Positions 3,281 to 8,517 of a DNA stretch of 64,000 nt are shown piece after piece. The stretch is from an uncultured Candidatus Saccharibacteria bacterium (GTDB lineage: Bacteria > Patescibacteriota > Minisyncoccia > Phycocordibacterales > DATGWK01). Every line of letters starts with the position of its first letter. The first letter of the stretch is position 1. Location of the stretch: the NCBI GenBank assembly GCA_964428845.1, contig CAYRZH010000001.1:204445-268444 (forward strand). The letters run 5' to 3'. The notes beneath the pieces are model-generated. The model was given only the letters and a program-made list of their open reading frames with translations. It was not told the origin of the DNA and did no database searches. The position numbers and the translations under genes were made by a program.

Positions 3281-3964
3281 ATGGGGAATAGCGGGCCAAA
3301 ACCAAAAGGCAAAATAAAGATTAAATGGTCCTCAAATTTTGCCTATGCCATTGGGCTTATTGCCACAGACGGAAACCTTTCTCCAAGTGGTCGTCATATA
3401 GTCTTTACATCTAAGGACTTTGAACAAATAAATAATTTCAAGAAGATTCTACGTTTAACAAATAAAATAGGGAAAAAGGGAAATGGTAGTAGTAAGGAGA
3501 AAAAATATTATGTCTTGCAATTTGGAGACGTCCTATTTTATTCATTTCTCGGGAAAATAGGCATATCTCCTGCAAAATCCAAAACCATAGGCCCTATTCA
3601 AGTTCCAGATAAATTCTTTTTTGATTTTCTAAGGGGATGTTTTGATGGCGATGGGTGCAGTTATAGTTATTGGGATAAGCGTTGGAAATCCAGCTTTCTT
3701 TTCTATATTTCCCTAGCTTCCGCGAGCGAACCTTTTATTTCTTGGGTTAGAAAAAAAGTAAAGCAGTTTGTGGGCGTATCTGGCCACGTTAGCAAACTAA
3801 AAAATGCTTCAGGTTTTCAATTGAGATATGCAAAAAACGATGCAAAGAAGATTGTTTATGAAATGTACAGAAAACCTAATAGTGTTTTCTTGAAAAGGAA
3901 AAAGTTGAAAATCAACAGATCTTTGGCTATTATGAGCCAATTCCCCAAAAGACGACTAAAGTGA
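3281..3964 (+). CDS. LAGLIDADG homing endonuclease, free-standing, very AT-rich
   Basis: Two LAGLIDADG motifs: YAIGLIATDGNL and FLRGCFDGDGCS. Own promoter-like TTGAGG-17-TACAAT lies upstream. The gene ends 16 nt before tRNA-Leu. Confidence 0.8.
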   Translation: MGNSGPKPKGKIKIKWSSNFAYAIGLIATDGNLSPSGRHIVFTSKDFEQINNFKKILRLTNKIGKKGNGSSKEKKYYVLQFGDVLFYSFLGKIGISPAKSKTIGPIQVPDKFFFDFLRGCFDGDGCSYSYWDKRWKSSFLFYISLASASEPFISWVRKKVKQFVGVSGHVSKLKNASGFQLRYAKNDAKKIVYEMYRKPNSVFLKRKKLKINRSLAIMSQFPKRRLK

Positions 3965-4079: not shown

Positions 4080-4154
4080 GGTGCCTATGGTGTAACGGTT
4101 AACACTGGAGCTTGTGGAGCTCTCGATACCGGTTCGATTCCGGTTAGGCACCCA
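4080..4154 (+). tRNA. tRNA-His (anticodon GTG) with G-1
   Basis: G-1 + GTGCCTA acceptor pairing with TAGGCAC, anticodon loop TTGTGGA, T-arm ACCGG-TTCGATT-CCGGT, discriminator C. Confidence 0.8.
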
Positions 4155-4288
4155 CGGTTTGACAGAATGCTTAAAAAGTTATATCGTCTAAGACAGAAAG
4201 GTCCTCTTACTATTTCGGTGTCGTGATAAAAGCATGTCGACACATGCACGACTACGCTCCACACTTGGAGTGTTGAGGGGATTGAAAA

Positions 4289-4676
4289 ATGAAGATCCGC
4301 GTCAATTTCCAGGTTAGATGCAAGAATATGAGATGCATTCCGGGCTATAAGGCCAAAGAGACTGAGGGGGAAGATGTTTGGTGGGGGAAGTGACTTCTCG
4401 GGTATCATCAATTCTCCCGCAATACCGCGTGTGGGGGAGATTATTTTTATCACTGACAAGACCACCTTATGGCCTGGAATCGTTGTTGTTGAAAATGTGC
4501 ATTATTTTCTGGAGGGAGGAATTCTTAAGCCTGAGCTTGAATGCAACGACAGTGTCATCGATCTCAGTCGATATGCCAATATTCCCTGGATGTCATCATG
4601 GTCCGGTGTGGAAAAGTGGTTCCGTGATATCGAAAGGGTACTGGGCGAAGTGGGGTTCAGAGAGGAAGAGGAATAG
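4289..4676 (+). CDS. Hypothetical protein, possibly frameshifted: ORF 4289-4393 continues in +1 frame as 4374-4676; acidic C-terminus
   Basis: Two overlapping ORFs would read as one ~130-aa protein if a +1 shift occurs near 4375. No recognisable motif. Confidence 0.2.
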
Positions 4677-4751
4677 TCATTAGAGAAAACTGTCCTTGTA
4701 TCTGATTCGGCAAGTGCCCAACCAGGTCCATTCAATTGAAAGGAGTAAGCC

Positions 4752-5399
4752 GTGGGTATCGGGACAAATATTTTCGGCTCTTTTCTCACATTGAATTTGG
4801 CAAATCGTCGCCGGCGGGGAATGGCTATGTTCGGACACAAAAAGCCTGATTCAGCCGCACGTATTTTGGGTAGGGGAACGACCGACCGCTTCAAACTCAT
4901 CGACGAGTTCGAGGTCGTCGTGCCGATGGATTATGTTCACGCCACCTGTCTCTCTGATCTTGCGAGGGATTTCGGACACATGATCTCCCCTTTTTACCCT
5001 GTATTGACTGACGACAACTACAGAAACGTGACGACCCGCATGGAGCCAGGGGAAAGATTTGTGGCAAAGATTTTTCACATTGTTGGGCTGGAAACTTCTT
5101 TTGCCTGTCTGGGTTTGCTTGATCGGGAGAGAGCCATTCTGGCCGGGGCCCAGGGGCTGGCTCTCGTTTTTCGGGTGGCGAAGGACAGACTACCTCCCGA
5201 TCTCTGGACAGTTTCTTTCGACAGACCAGACGCATTGTTCTTCGATAGCCACAACGGCTGTCACCGGGTGCCGACCATTGGGCCATCCAGACAAAATCCC
5301 GGCAAGGGAGAGTTCCACTCCGGCTTCTTTGAACCCTTCGAGGGGGATAAGGGTTGGGATGCTCGCTTCTGTCTTCTCTGTCTTGTTCGTCAAGGGTAG
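4752..5399 (+). CDS. Uncharacterized protein, family member P2 (G+C-rich cassette gene)
   Basis: GTG start 6 nt after AAAGGAG. Core FEVVVPMDYVHAT...YPVLTDDNYRNVTTRMEPGERFVAKIFHIVGLETS...AILAGAQGLAL...LWTVSFDRPDAL ... FCLLCL aligns with P3. Confidence 0.5.
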   Translation: MGIGTNIFGSFLTLNLANRRRRGMAMFGHKKPDSAARILGRGTTDRFKLIDEFEVVVPMDYVHATCLSDLARDFGHMISPFYPVLTDDNYRNVTTRMEPGERFVAKIFHIVGLETSFACLGLLDRERAILAGAQGLALVFRVAKDRLPPDLWTVSFDRPDALFFDSHNGCHRVPTIGPSRQNPGKGEFHSGFFEPFEGDKGWDARFCLLCLVRQG

Positions 5400-5417
5400 A
5401 TTTTCTAAGTGTTCCCG

Positions 5418-5452
5418 GCGGCCCCGCGCTCGCGCTCGGGGTCTTTCTTTTA
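5418..5452 (+). terminator. Rho-independent terminator (CCCCGCGC-TCGC-GCTCGGGG + TCTTTCTTTT)
   Basis: GC-clamp hairpin plus T-tract. Shares the GCGCTCGGGG half with the terminator at 19231. Confidence 0.6.
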
Positions 5453-5579
5453 TAAATAATGATTTTAAGGATGGGTAAAACACAAGTATGTAGATGTTGG
5501 TGCGTTTGTCTGTTTAAACTTGGTTTCAACTTCCTGATACTGCGGCACCCACAATTTTTCTTCTGATATACTTTTCCTA

Positions 5580-6209
5580 ATGGTTGAAAGCGCTGAATTT
5601 GGTGTAAAAAAAGATCAACTCCCAGACGACAAATTAAACAGTATTATAGAAAAATACTGCGCCTCCTTGGTGGTTCCAAAAGATAAACCAAAGAAACAAT
5701 TTTTTCTTTGCCCAGTCGGCCTTATTGGGTCTGGCAAGACAACGGTTTTAAAGCCTTTGGCCGAAAAATTGAATCTTGTGCGTATATCTGGAGATGAAAT
5801 TAGGAAGATACTTTATGACCTGGGTTTTGATTATGATCGAACGTGGGAGATAGGGAGTATGGTTGTTGAAAGATATGCCAGAGAAGGATACAGCATTGCT
5901 CACGATACTGATTGTGCTACTCCAAAAACTATTGAGGCGATAAATAAACTCTCTAAGGAATTGGGTGCCCAGGTAGTATGGGTGCACGTCAACCCTCCAG
6001 AAGAATTTATTTTAAATAAGTTAAGGAAATATAAACACACATGGCTATATCGTGACGGTGAACATGCCATATCCAATTATTTAAGCCGAAAAAAAGTGCA
6101 CGAAAATTTACCAATGAATTTTCTTTATTCGTTTGATACATCTAAACCCAATCTCGACGAACAAATAGAACAAGCTTCGGAAGTCATTTTAAACAAGACC
6201 CAATTTTAA
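5580..6209 (+). CDS. P-loop NTPase / small kinase-like protein (Walker A GLIGSGKTT), AT-rich
   Basis: Walker A motif and ~210-aa size typical of AAA_33/zeta-toxin-like or nucleoside-kinase-like proteins. Family not assignable by eye. Confidence 0.55.
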   Translation: MVESAEFGVKKDQLPDDKLNSIIEKYCASLVVPKDKPKKQFFLCPVGLIGSGKTTVLKPLAEKLNLVRISGDEIRKILYDLGFDYDRTWEIGSMVVERYAREGYSIAHDTDCATPKTIEAINKLSKELGAQVVWVHVNPPEEFILNKLRKYKHTWLYRDGEHAISNYLSRKKVHENLPMNFLYSFDTSKPNLDEQIEQASEVILNKTQF

Positions 6210-6365
6210 TGTCTTTAGCCAGCCATAACTCCTCTTTTTATAAAATCAATAGATTCTCTCATAAGAATCTATTGATCATATTCGAGGGATGTGTATGATG
6301 AGAACAGAATTAATTTATGGGCAAATAAGGTTTTAACCCCGACTGAAATCAACAGGAGCATAGAG

Positions 6366-6581
6366 ATGAAAGCCGCAAGCTTGTCCCACCGTCAATGGTT
6401 TACTCGAGAGGGGCCTGATCGTCGCGTTTACGAGAGACTCCCTGGCCTTCCGGAGATTGTAGAGGGGGTCATGGCGATTCCAGTCCGACCGATTACGCCT
6501 ACTGTAAGACAACCAGGCTACTACATTCCAGCGGATGAATCGGTCGAAGTATGTCCTTCGAGATGTGTTCGGGTCGCATAA
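6366..6581 (+). CDS. Small hypothetical protein (72 aa) in a moderately G+C-rich patch
   Basis: CAGGAG SD 8 nt upstream of ATG. No recognisable motif. The opposite-strand ORF 6333-6611 is an alternative. Confidence 0.2.
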   Translation: MKAASLSHRQWFTREGPDRRVYERLPGLPEIVEGVMAIPVRPITPTVRQPGYYIPADESVEVCPSRCVRVA

Positions 6582-6633
6582 GGGCGTCATCGCAGGGGGG
6601 CAGAATGCCACCCTTTTTTCTTAGCCAAAATAG

Positions 6634-6765
6634 TATTTATGGACACGACGGGAGTTGAACCCGCAGTATTTAGTTGGTAAAACAAAATACCTAAACCGTT
6701 AGCGTGCCCATGACGCGATATACCACTCCGCGCCTAGGCAGACTCTAACAAAGACACATTCAAAT
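6634..6765. repeat. 132-bp direct repeat, copy 1 (tRNA/tmRNA-3'-end-like: reverse strand reads GCGGGTTCAACTCCCGTCGTGTCCA)
   Basis: 130/132 identical to 8095-8226. Contains a T-arm-like GGGTTCAACTCCC and a D-arm-like GAGTGGTATAT. Confidence 0.7.
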
Positions 6766-6901
6766 ATTTATTAAGTATACCCACCCCTCATCCCACCGCC
6801 AATCTTTCTGGATTTTTGTGACAGTTTGGTTCTTGTAGTTAGTGTTCGGTAAACAGTTAATGCAGCTTGTACCCCCCATTTTCCTAGGGTATAATTTCCT
6901 T

Positions 6902-7312
6902 ATGAAAAAAATAATCATAATTATTATTGCAATCGTCGTTGTTGTTGGTGGGGTTTGGTTTTATAAAAATAATGTGACAAGAACAAATATGAGCCCAAAA
7001 GAAACATACAAAGTAATTAACGACGAGTTGGCAAGGACGAAGAGTTTTGATGAATATGTTGCCGTCATGCTAAAGTATACCTCCTCAAAAAGCGATAACT
7101 CTGAGTTCAAAGATATGGTTGCAAACATGGACGATACGGAGAAAGAGAATTTTTTTAAATACTTACAAGAAAACAACATTATCCCCACTGACGCTCAATT
7201 ATCAGAGAAACTGACTGATAGCGAGCATGCAACTGTGAGCTGGAATGATTCCGATAACAAGACCAAAAGTATTGATATGGAAATAGACGGCGGTTCTTGG
7301 AAGATTAAGTAA
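6902..7312 (+). CDS. Membrane-anchored hypothetical protein (single N-terminal TM helix, Lys/Asp-rich ectodomain)
   Basis: MKKIIIIIIAIVVVVGGVWFY N-terminus; AT-rich; lies between the 132-bp repeats. Confidence 0.45.
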   Translation: MKKIIIIIIAIVVVVGGVWFYKNNVTRTNMSPKETYKVINDELARTKSFDEYVAVMLKYTSSKSDNSEFKDMVANMDDTEKENFFKYLQENNIIPTDAQLSEKLTDSEHATVSWNDSDNKTKSIDMEIDGGSWKIK

Positions 7313-7583
7313 CTCTAAATACTCCCTTTTTGGGGTCCGGGTAGGGTTAAAAAAGAACCGAATTAAGCTAAAACTGCTATACTTTGCATGTCAGAAGTGT
7401 AGATCGTCGCATCGTTCCTTTTCTTAAATATAGTTCTGATTTCCTCTACGACGGCACCCAAATGATTTTGAATAAACACATATCAACTTGGTCTAGTTTT
7501 GCGTAACTCCTTTTCCAGTTTTGTTTTTGCTTTAAAAAATCTCTAAATCTAAAAAGAATACACCACAAAGAAAGGAGATCGAC

Positions 7584-7973
7584 ATGGATCTTTCGGTGGT
7601 CATGGCTCGCCGAATTGTTACGACAGCTCTTGGTTATGTCGGCACACCTTATAGTTGGGAGGAGTTTAATTGTGTTCACTTTATAAGAAAGGTATATCAG
7701 GATGTTGGAATTGTTTTTCCTCGGCTTGTTAAAGAGATGGATCCTCCTGCAGATTTCCATCTTTCAGAGGAAGAGTTCGAAGAAATGCCGCTTGGTCGGT
7801 CTGTGTTTTTTAAAAGAAAAACTAGCAATCTACCCAGGAGTTGGACTCACATTGCTATTATTGTTTCTCCAAATGAATTAGTTCATTGTGCTCGCCGTCT
7901 GGGGTTTGTAGTTGTGACGCCGAAGTTAGAATTCCTCGAGACATACGCACTCACCCCAAAACCACTCTCATGA
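7584..7973 (+). CDS. NlpC/P60 (C40) family cell-wall peptidase
   Basis: GTPYSWEEFNCVHFIRKVY (Cys of the catalytic dyad) and a downstream His (THIAIIVSPNELVHCARR). Confidence 0.6.
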   Translation: MDLSVVMARRIVTTALGYVGTPYSWEEFNCVHFIRKVYQDVGIVFPRLVKEMDPPADFHLSEEEFEEMPLGRSVFFKRKTSNLPRSWTHIAIIVSPNELVHCARRLGFVVVTPKLEFLETYALTPKPLS

Positions 7974-8094
7974 GGGTGGTTTTTTATAATGTGATAGAAT
8001 TTTTTGCTGGGGCTAGAGCAACAAGATGTGGATTTTTACGCAGAATTGGAGGTTTATTATTCTCGGGTATAGCGACTTTCCTTCTCGTATAGAA

Positions 8095-8226
8095 TATTTA
8101 TGAACACGACGGGAGTTGAACCCGCAGTATTTAGTTGGTAAAACAAAATACCTAAACCGTTAGCGTGCCCATGACGCGATATACCACTCCGCGTCTAGGC
8201 AGACTCTAACAAAGACACATTCAAAT
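8095..8226. repeat. 132-bp direct repeat, copy 2
   Basis: 130/132 identical to 6634-6765. Followed by a bidirectional terminator CCGCCTCGAAAGGCGG at ~8248-8270. Confidence 0.7.
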
Positions 8227-8517
8227 CTTTTTTAAGAAAAGATAAATACAAAAACCGCCTCGAAAGGCGGCTTTTGCGATATTCTGTCTTACCAACCTCT
8301 GAATTATATATAACTCTCTCTCACTGTCAAAAAAAGACCGCCCCTTCCCGACGGTTTTTCTGGGACCCAAACTCACCAATATGAAAAATATGCAAAAATA
8401 TTCTCTTCCGACAATTGGGGGAAGGTAATTTGACAAATCTGTAAAATAGTGTAAACTCCCGTCCAGAACATTCGTGGCTTGTGGCCACAATAGCCGATCT
8501 TTCAATGGAGAACATGG

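What the first reader, a model, noticed from the sequence alone, without database searches (positions are those of the whole stretch)
6634..8226. 132-bp near-identical direct repeats (tRNA/tmRNA-3'-end-like) flanking a 1.33-kb segment with an NlpC/P60 peptidase and a membrane-anchored protein
Copies at 6634-6765 and 8095-8226 differ at 2 positions. On the reverse strand each ends ...GCGGGTTCAACTCCCGTCGTGTCCA, which is T-arm plus acceptor-like, and carries GAGTGGTATAT, which is D-loop-like. I could not fold either into a complete canonical tRNA because no matching 5' acceptor strand is present.

They therefore look like duplicated 3' portions of a tRNA or tmRNA gene. These would be attL/attR of a small integrated or decayed element whose cargo is a cell-wall hydrolase, or a duplicated unusual RNA gene.
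Basis: seen in the sequence. Interest (0 to 1): 0.5.

Follow-up and report, generated by a model that had tools for sequence, protein, structure and literature searches.

The report
Duplicated tRNA-like RNA with antisense partner
The two repeats are two complete copies of a gene for a compact, alanine-type tRNA-like RNA that comes with its own small antisense RNA, a conserved two-RNA module in candidate-phyla bacteria that I found described nowhere; they are not the ends of an inserted element.

Summary
The repeat is real: 132 nt with 2 mismatches, extendable to about 142 nt. On the minus strand each copy is a complete 70-nt tRNA-like gene. The RNA has a 4-bp mini D arm, a 10-layer anticodon-like arm, a normal T arm and no encoded CCA, and a 5' hairpin precedes it. 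It falls below Rfam's tRNA and tmRNA thresholds, and ARAGORN does not call it.

Relatives in Patescibacteria metagenome contigs keep all three helices through compensatory changes. Six independent loci carry, on the same strand, a near-consensus promoter, a 14-20 nt stretch complementary to the arm's 5' strand and loop, and a hairpin with a U-run. The complementary stretch co-varies with the arm. In the window this small RNA lies upstream of copy B (about 8296-8245, minus strand).

A related contig has tRNA-His directly next to the NlpC/P60 gene. Copy A therefore sits in about 3.3 kb inserted at tRNA-His, and the 1.33-kb "cargo" is not a unit.

Function is inferred only. My best guess is an alanine-accepting tRNA mimic held in check by its antisense RNA, in the manner of a toxin-antitoxin pair.

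The parts
6640..6709 (-). tRNA-like RNA, copy A (70 nt). It has a 7-bp acceptor stem with G3:U70 and discriminator A73, a mini D arm (CUAA-CGGU-UUAG), a 10-layer anticodon-like arm whose loop is UUUACCA, and a T arm (GCGGG-UUCAACU-CCCGU). No CCA is encoded.
   Evidence: Rfam tmRNA model 30.5 bits, below its gathering score of 47. Cloverleaf-like fold, z = -2.6. My own covariance model scores it 99.1 bits. Helices covary in relatives.
6712..6734 (-). 5' hairpin of copy A (GGCGCG-GAGUGGUAUAU-CGCGUC), ending 2 nt before G1. Its loop contains UGGUA, which is complementary to the arm loop UACCA.
   Evidence: Read. The stem covaries in L154 (GACGUGA/UCACGUC) and L155. The A/B difference at 6733 turns a G.U pair into A-U.
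6634..6775 (.). Direct repeat, copy A. It holds the hairpin, the tRNA-like RNA and about 40 nt of upstream sequence.
8095..8236 (.). Direct repeat, copy B.
8101..8170 (-). tRNA-like RNA, copy B. It differs from copy A by C71 to U, so that pair 2:71 is G.U.
   Evidence: Rfam tRNA model 21 bits, below its gathering score of 29. My own covariance model scores it 96.5 bits.
8173..8195 (-). 5' hairpin of copy B (GACGCG-GAGUGGUAUAU-CGCGUC).
8303..8330 (-). Perfect sigma-70-type promoter (TTGACA, 16 nt, TATAAT) for the small antisense RNA.
   Evidence: 12 of 12 matches.
8245..8296 (-). Small antisense RNA of about 50 nt (ends predicted, not mapped). Its segment 8297..8278 (GGUUGGUAAGACAGAAUAUC) pairs with the arm's 5' strand and loop (GGUAUUUUGUUUUACCAACU) over 20 bp, 4 of them G.U. 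An intrinsic terminator follows at 8277..8248.
6774..6802 (-). Weak promoter-like site upstream of copy A (TTGGCG, 17 nt, TATACT). By eye, an extended -10-like TGTTAGAGT also lies about 7 nt before the hairpin in both copies.
   Evidence: 9 of 12 matches; the rest is read. Inference only.
6902..7312 (+). 136-aa protein with a hydrophobic N terminus and no family match. It lies inside the insertion at tRNA-His and is context, not part of the RNA module.
7584..7973 (+). NlpC/P60 peptidase gene. It is the native neighbour of tRNA-His in a relative and is context, not cargo.
   Evidence: Pfam. An 85% identical homologue lies next to tRNA-His in L168.
4081..4153 (+). tRNA-His(GUG), the integration target.
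7453..7460 (+). GGCACCCA, a copy of the last 8 nt at the tRNA-His 3' end (4147-4154). It marks the right end of the inserted DNA. A further copy, GGCACCCAC, lies at 5544-5552.
   Evidence: (family D7).

Best explanation
SHOWN. Each repeat is a whole gene on the minus strand. It encodes a 23-nt hairpin, a 2-nt spacer and a 70-nt compact tRNA-like RNA. That RNA has an alanine-type acceptor end (G1-C72, G2-C71, G3:U70, A73), a 3-4 bp mini D arm that keeps the GG of a D loop, and an anticodon-like arm lengthened to about 10 layers. Ten layers is about the height I would expect for the normal D-stem plus anticodon-stem stack (my estimate, not modelled). The variable region is only 1-2 nt, the T arm is canonical, and no CCA is encoded. 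The gene is duplicated. Copy A lies in DNA inserted at tRNA-His; copy B lies beyond the NlpC/P60 gene. Upstream of copy B, a consensus promoter is placed to drive a predicted small RNA of about 50 nt. Its first 20-25 nt are complementary to the 5' strand and loop of the anticodon-like arm, and an intrinsic-terminator-like hairpin follows. No transcript has been observed. The same pair, tRNA-like RNA plus cognate antisense RNA, recurs in five other Patescibacteria-type metagenome loci. The arm sequences differ between loci and the antisense segments match them. The gene order is swapped in some lineages.

INFERRED. (1) AlaRS charges the RNA, because G3:U70 and A73 suffice for AlaRS by established knowledge. 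(2) The antisense RNA opens and masks the anticodon-like arm. The predicted duplex is -27 to -32 kcal/mol, against -5 to -7 for the hairpin. This would neutralise the tRNA-like RNA or mark it for cleavage. (3) The pair behaves like an RNA-toxin/RNA-antitoxin or tightly self-regulated module. An alanine-accepting tRNA mimic with a non-alanine 'anticodon' (UAC here) would be harmful if free, either by misreading codons or by jamming the tRNA or tmRNA machinery. A strongly expressed antisense RNA would keep it silent. Its patchy, insertion-like distribution fits an accessory or selfish module.
For: Structure:
- The acceptor stem, arm and T arm fold in both copies.
- In 9 sequences, 94.9% of cells are paired and 14 of 20 pairs show changes on both sides. 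None of 500 shuffles reaches this, and slid controls give 35-53%.
- RNAalifold finds the same three helices on its own.
- Acceptor positions 4-7 and T-stem positions 1-2 were not fixed by my search pattern. They are paired in 35 of 36 and 18 of 18 cases, with swaps such as CG to GC and AU to CG.
- Both differences between copies A and B keep their pairs.

Antisense partner:
- Contiguous complementarity of 20, 17, 19, 17, 14 and 16 nt occurs in the window, L154, L155, L146, L156 and L160. Only 0-1 of 100 arm shuffles reach these lengths.
- Cognate duplexes are -27 to -32 kcal/mol; non-cognate ones are -6 to -20.
- All 9 non-Watson-Crick positions are G.U on the transcribed strand. If the other strand were read, the runs would fall to 8-12 nt.
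- A promoter with 10-12 of 12 matches lies directly before every antisense segment.
- The terminator scan finds terminators after the segment in the window, L146, L156 and L160.

Anticodon-like loop: the centred 7-mer of every arm loop has U at position 2.

Patchy distribution:
- The module sits between femAB and ybeY in L146 and L160 only. Those two genes abut in 7 other loci.
- Relatives that share the tRNA-Val, tRNA-Leu and tRNA-His context lack the RNA.
- Copy A lies inside an insertion.
Against: - No expression, charging or toxicity data exist. Everything functional is inference.
- G3:U70 in the more distant relatives (L156, L146, L160, L134, L147) was imposed by my search pattern. It is unbiased only for the window's RNA and for the close relatives L154 and L155 as one lineage.
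- Position 37 of the loop is C in 5 of the 8 loci, which is unusual for a decoding tRNA.
- Copy A has no antisense gene of its own.
- In L134 and L147 no convincing antisense partner was found in the short DNA available.
- Only about 6 independent loci are known, from one pattern scan of one metagenome collection.
- The module also occurs next to housekeeping genes (rnr, ybeY), so a housekeeping role is not excluded.
- The terminator scan did not flag the hairpins in L154 and L155. I read those by eye.
Confidence: 0.45

Rival explanations
1. The repeats are attL/attR (duplicated 3' part of a tRNA or tmRNA gene) of a small integrated or decayed element whose cargo is the NlpC/P60 hydrolase.
For: The direct repeats are near-identical and 1461 bp apart. 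The region lies downstream of tRNA-His, in variable DNA.
Against: Both copies are complete genes that include the 5' acceptor strand, the upstream hairpin and about 40 nt more. No integrase match turned up in the ORFs I scanned between 4374 and 9000. In L168 the NlpC/P60 gene lies directly after tRNA-His, with no tRNA-like RNA or 136-aa ORF before it. Window homology to L168 begins at 7460, in the middle of the supposed cargo.
Confidence: 0.03
2. It is a minimal tmRNA, consisting of the tRNA-like domain only, as in jakobid mitochondria. It would work with SmpB in ribosome rescue without tagging, and the antisense RNA would tune its level.
For: The Rfam tmRNA model aligns both ends (30.5 bits). 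The RNA has G3:U70 and A73, no canonical D stem, and a long helix where tmRNA has P2. Other 67-77-nt RNAs from the same scans pass Rfam's tmRNA gathering score (L136 63.3, L127 56.2, L145 55.2, L144 51.8 bits). In L156 the RNA lies next to the RNase R gene.
Against: The score is below the family threshold of 47, and ARAGORN finds no tmRNA. The D loop is of the tRNA-Glu type, and ordinary tRNA-Glu genes score 35-40 bits with my model. The arm ends in an anticodon-like loop with U33. By reading, neither the small RNAs nor the flanks hold a conserved tag reading frame (sequences). The distribution is patchy rather than universal. No smpB was seen nearby.
Confidence: 0.12
3. The RNA is a non-ribosomal alanine carrier. 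AlaRS would charge it, and a Fem-type or other aminoacyl-tRNA-dependent transferase would use it for cell-wall synthesis, like the non-proteinogenic tRNA-Gly of staphylococci.
For: The acceptor is alanine-type with an atypical body. The module lies next to a FemAB-family gene in L146 and L160 (Pfam E = 1e-46), next to an NlpC/P60 gene in the window, and about 1 kb from PBP and Mur-ligase genes in L154.
Against: Seven other femAB-ybeY loci have no room for the RNA, so Fem enzymes in these bacteria do not depend on it. The NlpC/P60 neighbourhood results from an insertion. The idea does not explain a dedicated antisense RNA or the varying anticodon-like loops.
Confidence: 0.1
4. The small RNA is a trans-acting regulator of mRNAs elsewhere in the genome, and the tRNA-like RNA is its stable sponge or decoy (or the reverse).
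For: The small RNA is built like a regulatory RNA: a 5' seed followed by a terminator. Established knowledge supplies a precedent: the tRNA-precursor fragment 3'ETS-leuZ sponges small RNAs in enterobacteria.
Against: The seed varies freely between lineages and always tracks the arm. That is not expected if conserved mRNA targets constrained it. In the 64-kb window the seed's only good target is the two tRNA-like genes. A sponge would not need an alanine-type acceptor, a T arm or tRNA dimensions.
Confidence: 0.15
5. They are decaying tRNA pseudogenes that were duplicated by chance and have no function.
For: They fail the tRNA-finder thresholds. They lie in variable DNA near tRNA genes.
Against: The helices are kept by compensatory changes across lineages whose arms have diverged completely. 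The partner antisense segment, its promoter and its terminator are also kept.
Confidence: 0.03

Closest known systems
tRNA-like domain of tmRNA (Rfam RF00023) and the domain-only mitochondrial tmRNA of jakobids
   Same: A 7-bp acceptor stem with G3:U70 and A73, no canonical D stem, a GG-containing loop after the acceptor stem, a long helix in place of the anticodon arm, and a canonical T arm. The Rfam tmRNA model aligns both ends.
   Different: It scores 30.5 bits against a threshold of 47. It has no mRNA-like domain, no pseudoknots and no tag. The helix is short and ends in an anticodon-like 7-nt loop with U33. The D loop is of the tRNA-Glu type. It has a dedicated antisense RNA. Its distribution is patchy.
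Allo-tRNAs and other non-canonical bacterial tRNAs whose identity and anticodon do not match (Mukai et al. 2017, PMC5389517)
   Same: They are tRNA-shaped RNAs from environmental bacteria. Some carry G3:U70 together with non-alanine anticodons, they are often found near toxin-antitoxin loci or mobile DNA, and some are toxic in E. coli.
   Different: Allo-tRNAs have 8/4 or 9/3 acceptor/T stems and a long variable arm. This RNA has 7/5 stems, a 1-2-nt variable region, a reduced D arm and a lengthened anticodon stem. The paper's text contains no occurrence of 'antisense'.
Antisense-controlled toxin-antitoxin modules: type I, and type VIII in which the toxin is itself an RNA
   Same: A compact two-gene module in which a short RNA is strongly expressed, terminator-ended and extensively complementary to the other gene's product. 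It occurs patchily and in islands, and the two partners co-evolve.
   Different: The 'toxin' here would be a tRNA-like RNA rather than a peptide mRNA. The two genes lie in tandem on the same strand rather than overlapping. Toxicity is untested.
Canonical tRNA (Rfam RF00005), especially tRNA-Glu (D loop) and tRNA-Val(UAC) (anticodon loop)
   Same: The acceptor and T arms are canonical. The D-loop sequence AACGGUUUAGG is identical to that of many tRNA-Glu genes. The loop UUUACCA resembles the window's own tRNA-Val loop UUUACAC. The overall length is 70 nt.
   Different: There is no U8/N9 linker and the 5' strand of the D stem is absent. Position 37 is C. It scores 21 bits against the threshold of 29, and ARAGORN does not call it.

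Membership tests
Canonical tRNA | Passes the curated covariance-model threshold or a tRNA finder | tested here: not met
   Rfam RF00005 gives 21 bits against a gathering score of 29. ARAGORN finds only Val, Leu and His in the window.
Canonical tRNA | 7-bp acceptor stem and 5-bp T stem with a 7-nt T loop | tested here: met
   GGGCACG pairs with CGUGUCC, and the T arm is GCGGG-UUCAACU-CCCGU. Both covary in relatives.
Canonical tRNA | U8/N9 linker and a 4-bp D stem with an 8-11-nt loop | tested here: not met
   The acceptor stem is followed directly by CUAA-CGGU-UUAG. The region is 3 nt shorter than in a tRNA.
Canonical tRNA | 5-bp anticodon stem and a 7-nt loop with U33 and a purine at position 37 | tested here: inconclusive
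   The centred 7-mer is UUUACCA. U33 is present, position 37 is C, and the stem has about 10 layers with a U.U mismatch.
tmRNA | Passes the Rfam tmRNA gathering score or ARAGORN's tmRNA mode | tested here: not met
   30.5 bits against 47. ARAGORN reports none.
tmRNA | Alanine identity: G3:U70 and A73 | tested here: met
   Read from the sequence. Actual charging cannot be tested here.
tmRNA | mRNA-like domain with a resume codon, tag frame and stop, plus pseudoknots | tested here: not met
   Only 13-26 nt lie between the two strands of the arm. By reading, I found no conserved tag frame in the flanks or in the small RNAs (sequences).
Integrated element bounded by attL/attR derived from a tRNA gene | One full gene plus one 3' fragment as the direct repeat | tested here: not met
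   Both copies are full length and include upstream sequence.
Integrated element bounded by attL/attR derived from a tRNA gene | An integrase or recombinase inside | tested here: not met
   Pfam, PADLOC and PHROGs scans of the ORFs between 4374 and 9000 gave no recombinase match. Only ORFs of 96 aa or more were scanned.
Integrated element bounded by attL/attR derived from a tRNA gene | An empty site in a relative that matches the repeat boundaries | tested here: not met
   The empty site in L168 joins tRNA-His to window position 7460, not to the repeats.
Antisense-RNA toxin-antitoxin module (type I / type VIII-like) | A short antisense RNA with its own promoter and terminator, complementary to the partner and co-varying with it | tested here: met
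Antisense-RNA toxin-antitoxin module (type I / type VIII-like) | The partner is toxic when the antisense RNA is absent | not testable with these tools
   This needs expression experiments.
Allo-tRNA | 8/4 or 9/3 acceptor/T-stem configuration and a long variable arm | tested here: not met
   The configuration is 7/5 and the variable region is 1-2 nt. The definition is taken from PMC5389517.

The most novel reading that the evidence does not exclude
A new class of two-RNA addiction or defence module in which the toxin is a tRNA itself. The toxin would be a compact, alanine-accepting tRNA with a non-alanine anticodon (UAC, UAA, CGA, AUC or GUC in different lineages). When free, it would insert alanine at the wrong codons or block the tRNA or tmRNA machinery. 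The antitoxin would be a co-evolving small antisense RNA that unzips and masks its anticodon arm.
Probability: 0.25. Interest if true: 0.9.

Novelty: new variant of a known kind. Interest (0 to 1): 0.7.

Why it matters
If the pair is real and expressed, it adds a new kind of non-canonical tRNA-like RNA to bacteria. As far as I could find, it would also be the first case of a tRNA-shaped RNA with its own dedicated antisense RNA. It would give a concrete, testable handle on several questions:
- Do cells carry deliberately mis-identifying tRNAs, and how are they kept safe?
- How far can a tRNA body be reshaped (D stem replaced by a longer anticodon stem) and still serve?
- What small-RNA regulation exists in Patescibacteria, where I know of little that has been reported?

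For annotation, it warns that near-identical 'tRNA-end-like' repeats can be whole genes that tRNA finders miss. The real insertion boundaries lie at short tRNA-His end repeats.

Tried and rejected
- A viral scan with the T arm plus acceptor sequence gave 0 hits.
- Exact-protein look-ups for the window's own NlpC/P60 and CopA proteins were not on record.
- CopA-anchored relatives (L001-L006) share the tRNA context but lack the RNA.
- I considered a two-piece tmRNA with the small RNA as the coding piece. I rejected it because reading the small RNAs gave no conserved reading frame, and the pairing segment sits at the extreme 5' end, which is the wrong topology.
- I considered a T-box-like attenuator. 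I rejected it because in L146, L156 and L160 the small RNA lies downstream of the tRNA-like gene and nothing follows its terminator.
- I considered an invertible DNA switch bounded by the inverted repeat. I rejected it because the promoter is inside the repeat pair in some loci and outside in others, and all mismatches are G.U on one strand only.
- I tested a functional link to FemAB and did not find it conserved.
- L109 (Gammaproteobacteria) shares GGGCACG...AACGGTTTAG but has no matching 3' acceptor strand, so I treated it as a chance match.
- Literature searches for a tRNA-like or tmRNA-like RNA with an antisense partner found nothing relevant.
Full report
**1. The observation.** Window 6634-6765 and 8095-8226 are 132 nt long and differ at two positions, 6642/8103 and 6733/8194. 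The similarity continues to about 6775/8236. A 20-nt probe from the repeat matches only these two places, against 0.00 expected by chance. The ORFs between the copies are a 136-aa protein with a hydrophobic N terminus and no family match (6902-7312) and an NlpC/P60 peptidase (7584-7973; Pfam 24.8 bits, cut-off 23).

**2. What each copy is.** ARAGORN calls only tRNA-Val, tRNA-Leu and tRNA-His in the window. Rfam at its gathering thresholds finds nothing at the repeats. With relaxed thresholds, the tmRNA model aligns both ends of a 73-nt stretch in copy A (30.5 bits, threshold 47). The tRNA model aligns copy B (21 bits, threshold 29).

The 5' acceptor strand is GGGCACG (6709..6703 on the minus strand). 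It pairs with CGUGUCC over 7 bp through a G3:U70 wobble and is followed by discriminator A.
- The RNA is 70 nt long and CCA is not encoded. The window's tRNA-His gene also lacks an encoded CCA.
- The fold has four parts: the acceptor stem, a mini hairpin (CUAA-CGGU-UUAG) directly after it, a long arm (GUAUUU-U-GUU / AAC-U-AAAUAC), and a canonical T arm.
- Read as a tRNA, the 5' strand of the D stem and the U8/N9 linker are missing. The anticodon stem is lengthened to about 10 layers, and the variable region is 1-2 nt. The loop can be read as UUUACCA, that is U33 with 'anticodon' UAC and C37.
- A 23-nt hairpin (GGCGCG-GAGUGGUAUAU-CGCGUC) ends 2 nt before G1.
- Both differences between the two copies keep a base pair. 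C71 to U gives G.U, and in the hairpin a G.U pair becomes A-U.

**3. Organism and surroundings.** The CopA protein encoded 1.2 kb away has 80-85% identical homologues. The named ones among the best hits are labelled Candidatus Paceibacterota, Parcubacteria or Patescibacteria. The window also holds the start of a 23S rRNA gene and a LAGLIDADG ORF.

- Relatives fetched through CopA (L001-L006) share the order tRNA-Val, L19, tRNA-Leu, tRNA-His. After tRNA-His they carry a serine-recombinase island with the copper genes, and they have no copy of the tRNA-like RNA.
- The NlpC/P60 protein has only two close homologues. One of them, on L168, lies directly downstream of a tRNA-His gene.
- Window homology to L168 starts at 7460, immediately after GGCACCCA (7453-7460). 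That octamer repeats the last 8 nt at the window's own tRNA-His 3' end (4147-4154). A third copy, GGCACCCAC, lies at 5544-5552. The two downstream copies share a longer 14-nt context.
- About 3.3 kb has therefore been inserted between tRNA-His and the NlpC/P60 gene, probably as two tandem pieces. Copy A and the 136-aa ORF lie inside the second piece. The NlpC/P60 gene is native flank, and copy B lies beyond it.
- This refutes the attL/attR reading of the 132-nt repeats. The '1.33-kb cargo' is not a unit.
- None of the ORFs scanned between 4374 and 9000 matched a recombinase.

**4. Relatives of the RNA.** My first scan, of species genomes, was wasted on ordinary tRNA-Glu genes, which share the D loop AACGGUUUAGG.

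- I then designed a second pattern. It required GGG, a short spacer, CGGTTT, a gap of 24-36 nt, the T arm, and TCCA at the right distance. It gave 2 viral and 36 metagenome loci.
- L154 and L155 are close relatives (92.6 and 88.3 bits with a model built from the window's group). L156, L146, L134, L160 and L147 are more distant (36-46 bits).
- On these nine sequences, 94.9% of cells are paired and 14 of 20 pairs show changes on both sides. No shuffle out of 500 reaches this, and slid controls give 35-53%. RNAalifold predicts the same three helices.
- The search pattern fixed only acceptor pairs 1-3 and the inner three T-stem pairs. The free pairs are complementary in 35 of 36 cases (acceptor 4-7) and 18 of 18 cases (T stem 1-2).
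- The mini D stem also changes in step: CUAA/UUAG, GGA/UCC, GAA/UUC, GAG/CUC, AAA/UUU and AGA/UCU (read). Part of its 3' strand was fixed by the pattern.
- The centred 7-mer of every arm loop has U at position 2. The 'anticodons' are UAC (window, L154, L155), UAA (L146), CGA (L160), AUC (L156) and GUC (L134).
- A caveat applies. G3:U70 in the distant relatives was imposed by the pattern. It is unbiased only in the window's RNA.

**5. The antisense partner.** While aligning the flanks, I saw the same layout upstream of copy B, L154 and L155. It is a near-consensus promoter, then a short segment, then a hairpin with a U-run, and about 100 nt later the 5' hairpin and the tRNA-like RNA.

- The short segment is complementary to the 5' strand and loop of the arm. 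In the window, GGUUGGUAAGACAGAAUAUC (8297..8278) pairs with GGUAUUUUGUUUUACCAACU over 20 bp.
- A systematic search of 800 nt on either side, on the same strand, found partners in six loci. Upstream partners occur in the window (20 nt), L154 (17) and L155 (19). Downstream partners occur in L146 (17), L156 (14) and L160 (16). Only 0-1 of 100 arm shuffles reach the observed length.
- A GC-rich group (L143, L157, L161) shows a weaker 16-nt case.
- Every antisense segment starts 4-8 nt after a promoter with 10-12 of 12 matches. The terminator scan finds a terminator after it in the window, L146, L156 and L160. In L154 and L155 I read the terminators by eye.
- The arms differ completely between loci, and the antisense segments follow them. 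Cognate duplexes are -27 to -32 kcal/mol, non-cognate ones are -6 to -20, and the arm hairpin alone is -5 to -7.
- All nine non-Watson-Crick positions are G.U on the transcribed strand. If the other strand were read, the runs would fall to 8-12 nt. The constraint therefore acts on RNA, not on DNA.
- In the window, the seed occurs once, and its only good targets are the two tRNA-like genes. Copy A has no antisense gene of its own, but its arm is identical to that of copy B.

**6. Distribution.** In L146 and L160 the module fills a gap of about 285 nt between ybeY and a FemAB-family gene. In seven other loci found through FemAB homologues, those two genes abut or overlap. Elsewhere the module lies after RNase R (L156), near tRNA-Glu and the cell-division cluster (L154), or in the tRNA-His insertion (window copy A). 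It is therefore a patchy, self-contained module, not tied to any protein gene I could identify.

**7. How it most likely works.**

- *Shown:* a conserved tRNA-shaped RNA with an alanine-type acceptor end, plus a cognate small RNA gene that co-varies with it and has its own promoter-like and terminator-like sites.
- *From established knowledge:* G3:U70 with A73 is sufficient for AlaRS, which ignores the anticodon. The 10-layer arm has about the height I would expect for the D-stem plus anticodon-stem stack, so tRNA dimensions would be kept (my estimate, not modelled).
- *Inferred:* the RNA is charged with alanine. The small RNA invades the arm and masks the loop. The pair acts like an RNA toxin with an RNA antitoxin, or as a tightly self-limited RNA. 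I put about 0.25-0.3 on the toxin-antitoxin reading specifically.
- *Rivals:* a domain-only tmRNA working with SmpB, an alanine carrier for Fem-type transferases, a regulator-and-sponge pair, pseudogenes, and the att-site reading. I give the evidence for and against each of these in the Rival explanations section.

**8. Comparison with what is known.** The RNA fails the tests for canonical tRNA, tmRNA and allo-tRNA.

- It resembles the tmRNA tRNA-like domain at its two ends.
- It resembles tRNA-Glu in its D loop and tRNA-Val(UAC) in its arm loop.
- The nearest published relatives in spirit are the allo-tRNAs with G3:U70 and non-alanine anticodons found near toxin-antitoxin loci (PMC5389517). 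Their architecture is different, and the paper's text does not contain the word 'antisense'.
- Rfam 15 has no family that reaches threshold here. Four literature searches found no description of such a pair.

**9. Verdict.** The att-site interpretation is refuted, and the 'duplicated unusual RNA gene' alternative is upheld and extended. I rate it a new variant of a known kind (non-canonical tRNA-like RNA), with a partner RNA that may make it something new. The function remains untested.

Noticed in passing
window 4147-4154, 5544-5552, 7453-7460; L168 324-921: The last 8-9 nt at the tRNA-His 3' end (GGCACCCA[C]) recur twice downstream. The two downstream copies share a 14-nt context (TACNNCGGCACCCA). 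L168 shows the uninterrupted tRNA-His to NlpC/P60 junction. This suggests two tandem insertions without an integrase (4155-5552 and 5553-7460). The second carries an AAA_33 kinase-like ORF (5580-6209), a 96-aa ORF, tRNA-like copy A and the 136-aa membrane protein.
   Followed up: partly
L127 1715-1983 (same sequence in L129); L136 9516-9586; L144 1357-1433; L145 5-81: These are 67-77-nt RNAs consisting only of a tmRNA-type tRNA-like domain, with a CGGUUUCGAC-type D-loop analogue. They pass Rfam's tmRNA gathering score (52-63 bits). In the viral contig L127 the RNA starts 2 nt after a 65-aa ORF ending ...EENAEEFVKDYIQKGGE, which looks to me like the prokaryotic ubiquitin-like protein Pup (recalled resemblance, not scanned). 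In L136 it lies in an array of 13 tRNA genes. No antisense partner was found for these.
   Followed up: partly
window 6712-6734 and 8173-8195; L154 and L155 equivalents: In the window's subgroup, the loop of the 5' hairpin (UGGUA[A]) is itself complementary to the anticodon-like loop (UUACCA), like a second partner site in cis. L156 and L134 also have a hairpin 1-2 nt before G1, but without this complementarity. The role is unexplained. It could affect 5' processing.
   Followed up: partly
L156 about 7085-7160; L134 about 270-420: Another small transcription unit appears to be shared by two loci. After a -10-like box comes GUCGAAnUAaUCUCGAC-UGGUGGA, and a terminator follows. It lies just downstream of the tRNA-like/antisense module. 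It may be a further small-RNA family.
   Followed up: no
L001 5794-16235; also L002, L004, L006: In close relatives, the CsoR-CopA copper cluster is part of an island that begins at the 3' end of tRNA-His. The island starts with a large serine recombinase (Resolvase, Recombinase and Zn_ribbon_recom domains), HTH_36 and DUF5659 genes. In the window, the copper genes lie beyond NlpC/P60 and copy B, without that recombinase.
   Followed up: no
window 3281-3964: A free-standing LAGLIDADG-type ORF (227 aa) lies just upstream of tRNA-Leu. In L001 no gene is called between the L19 gene and tRNA-Leu, so it is probably another small insertion.
   Followed up: no
L143 9683-9749 (same in L157, L161): A GC-rich 67-nt tRNA-like RNA with an encoded CCA and only about 5 acceptor pairs. 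It has a 16-nt G.U-rich complementary segment 115 nt upstream, the same spacing as in the window's group. It may be a distant member of the same kind of module.
   Followed up: no
L003 10692-12145: A diversity-generating retroelement pair (bAvd plus reverse transcriptase) lies a few kb from the copper island in one relative.
   Followed up: no
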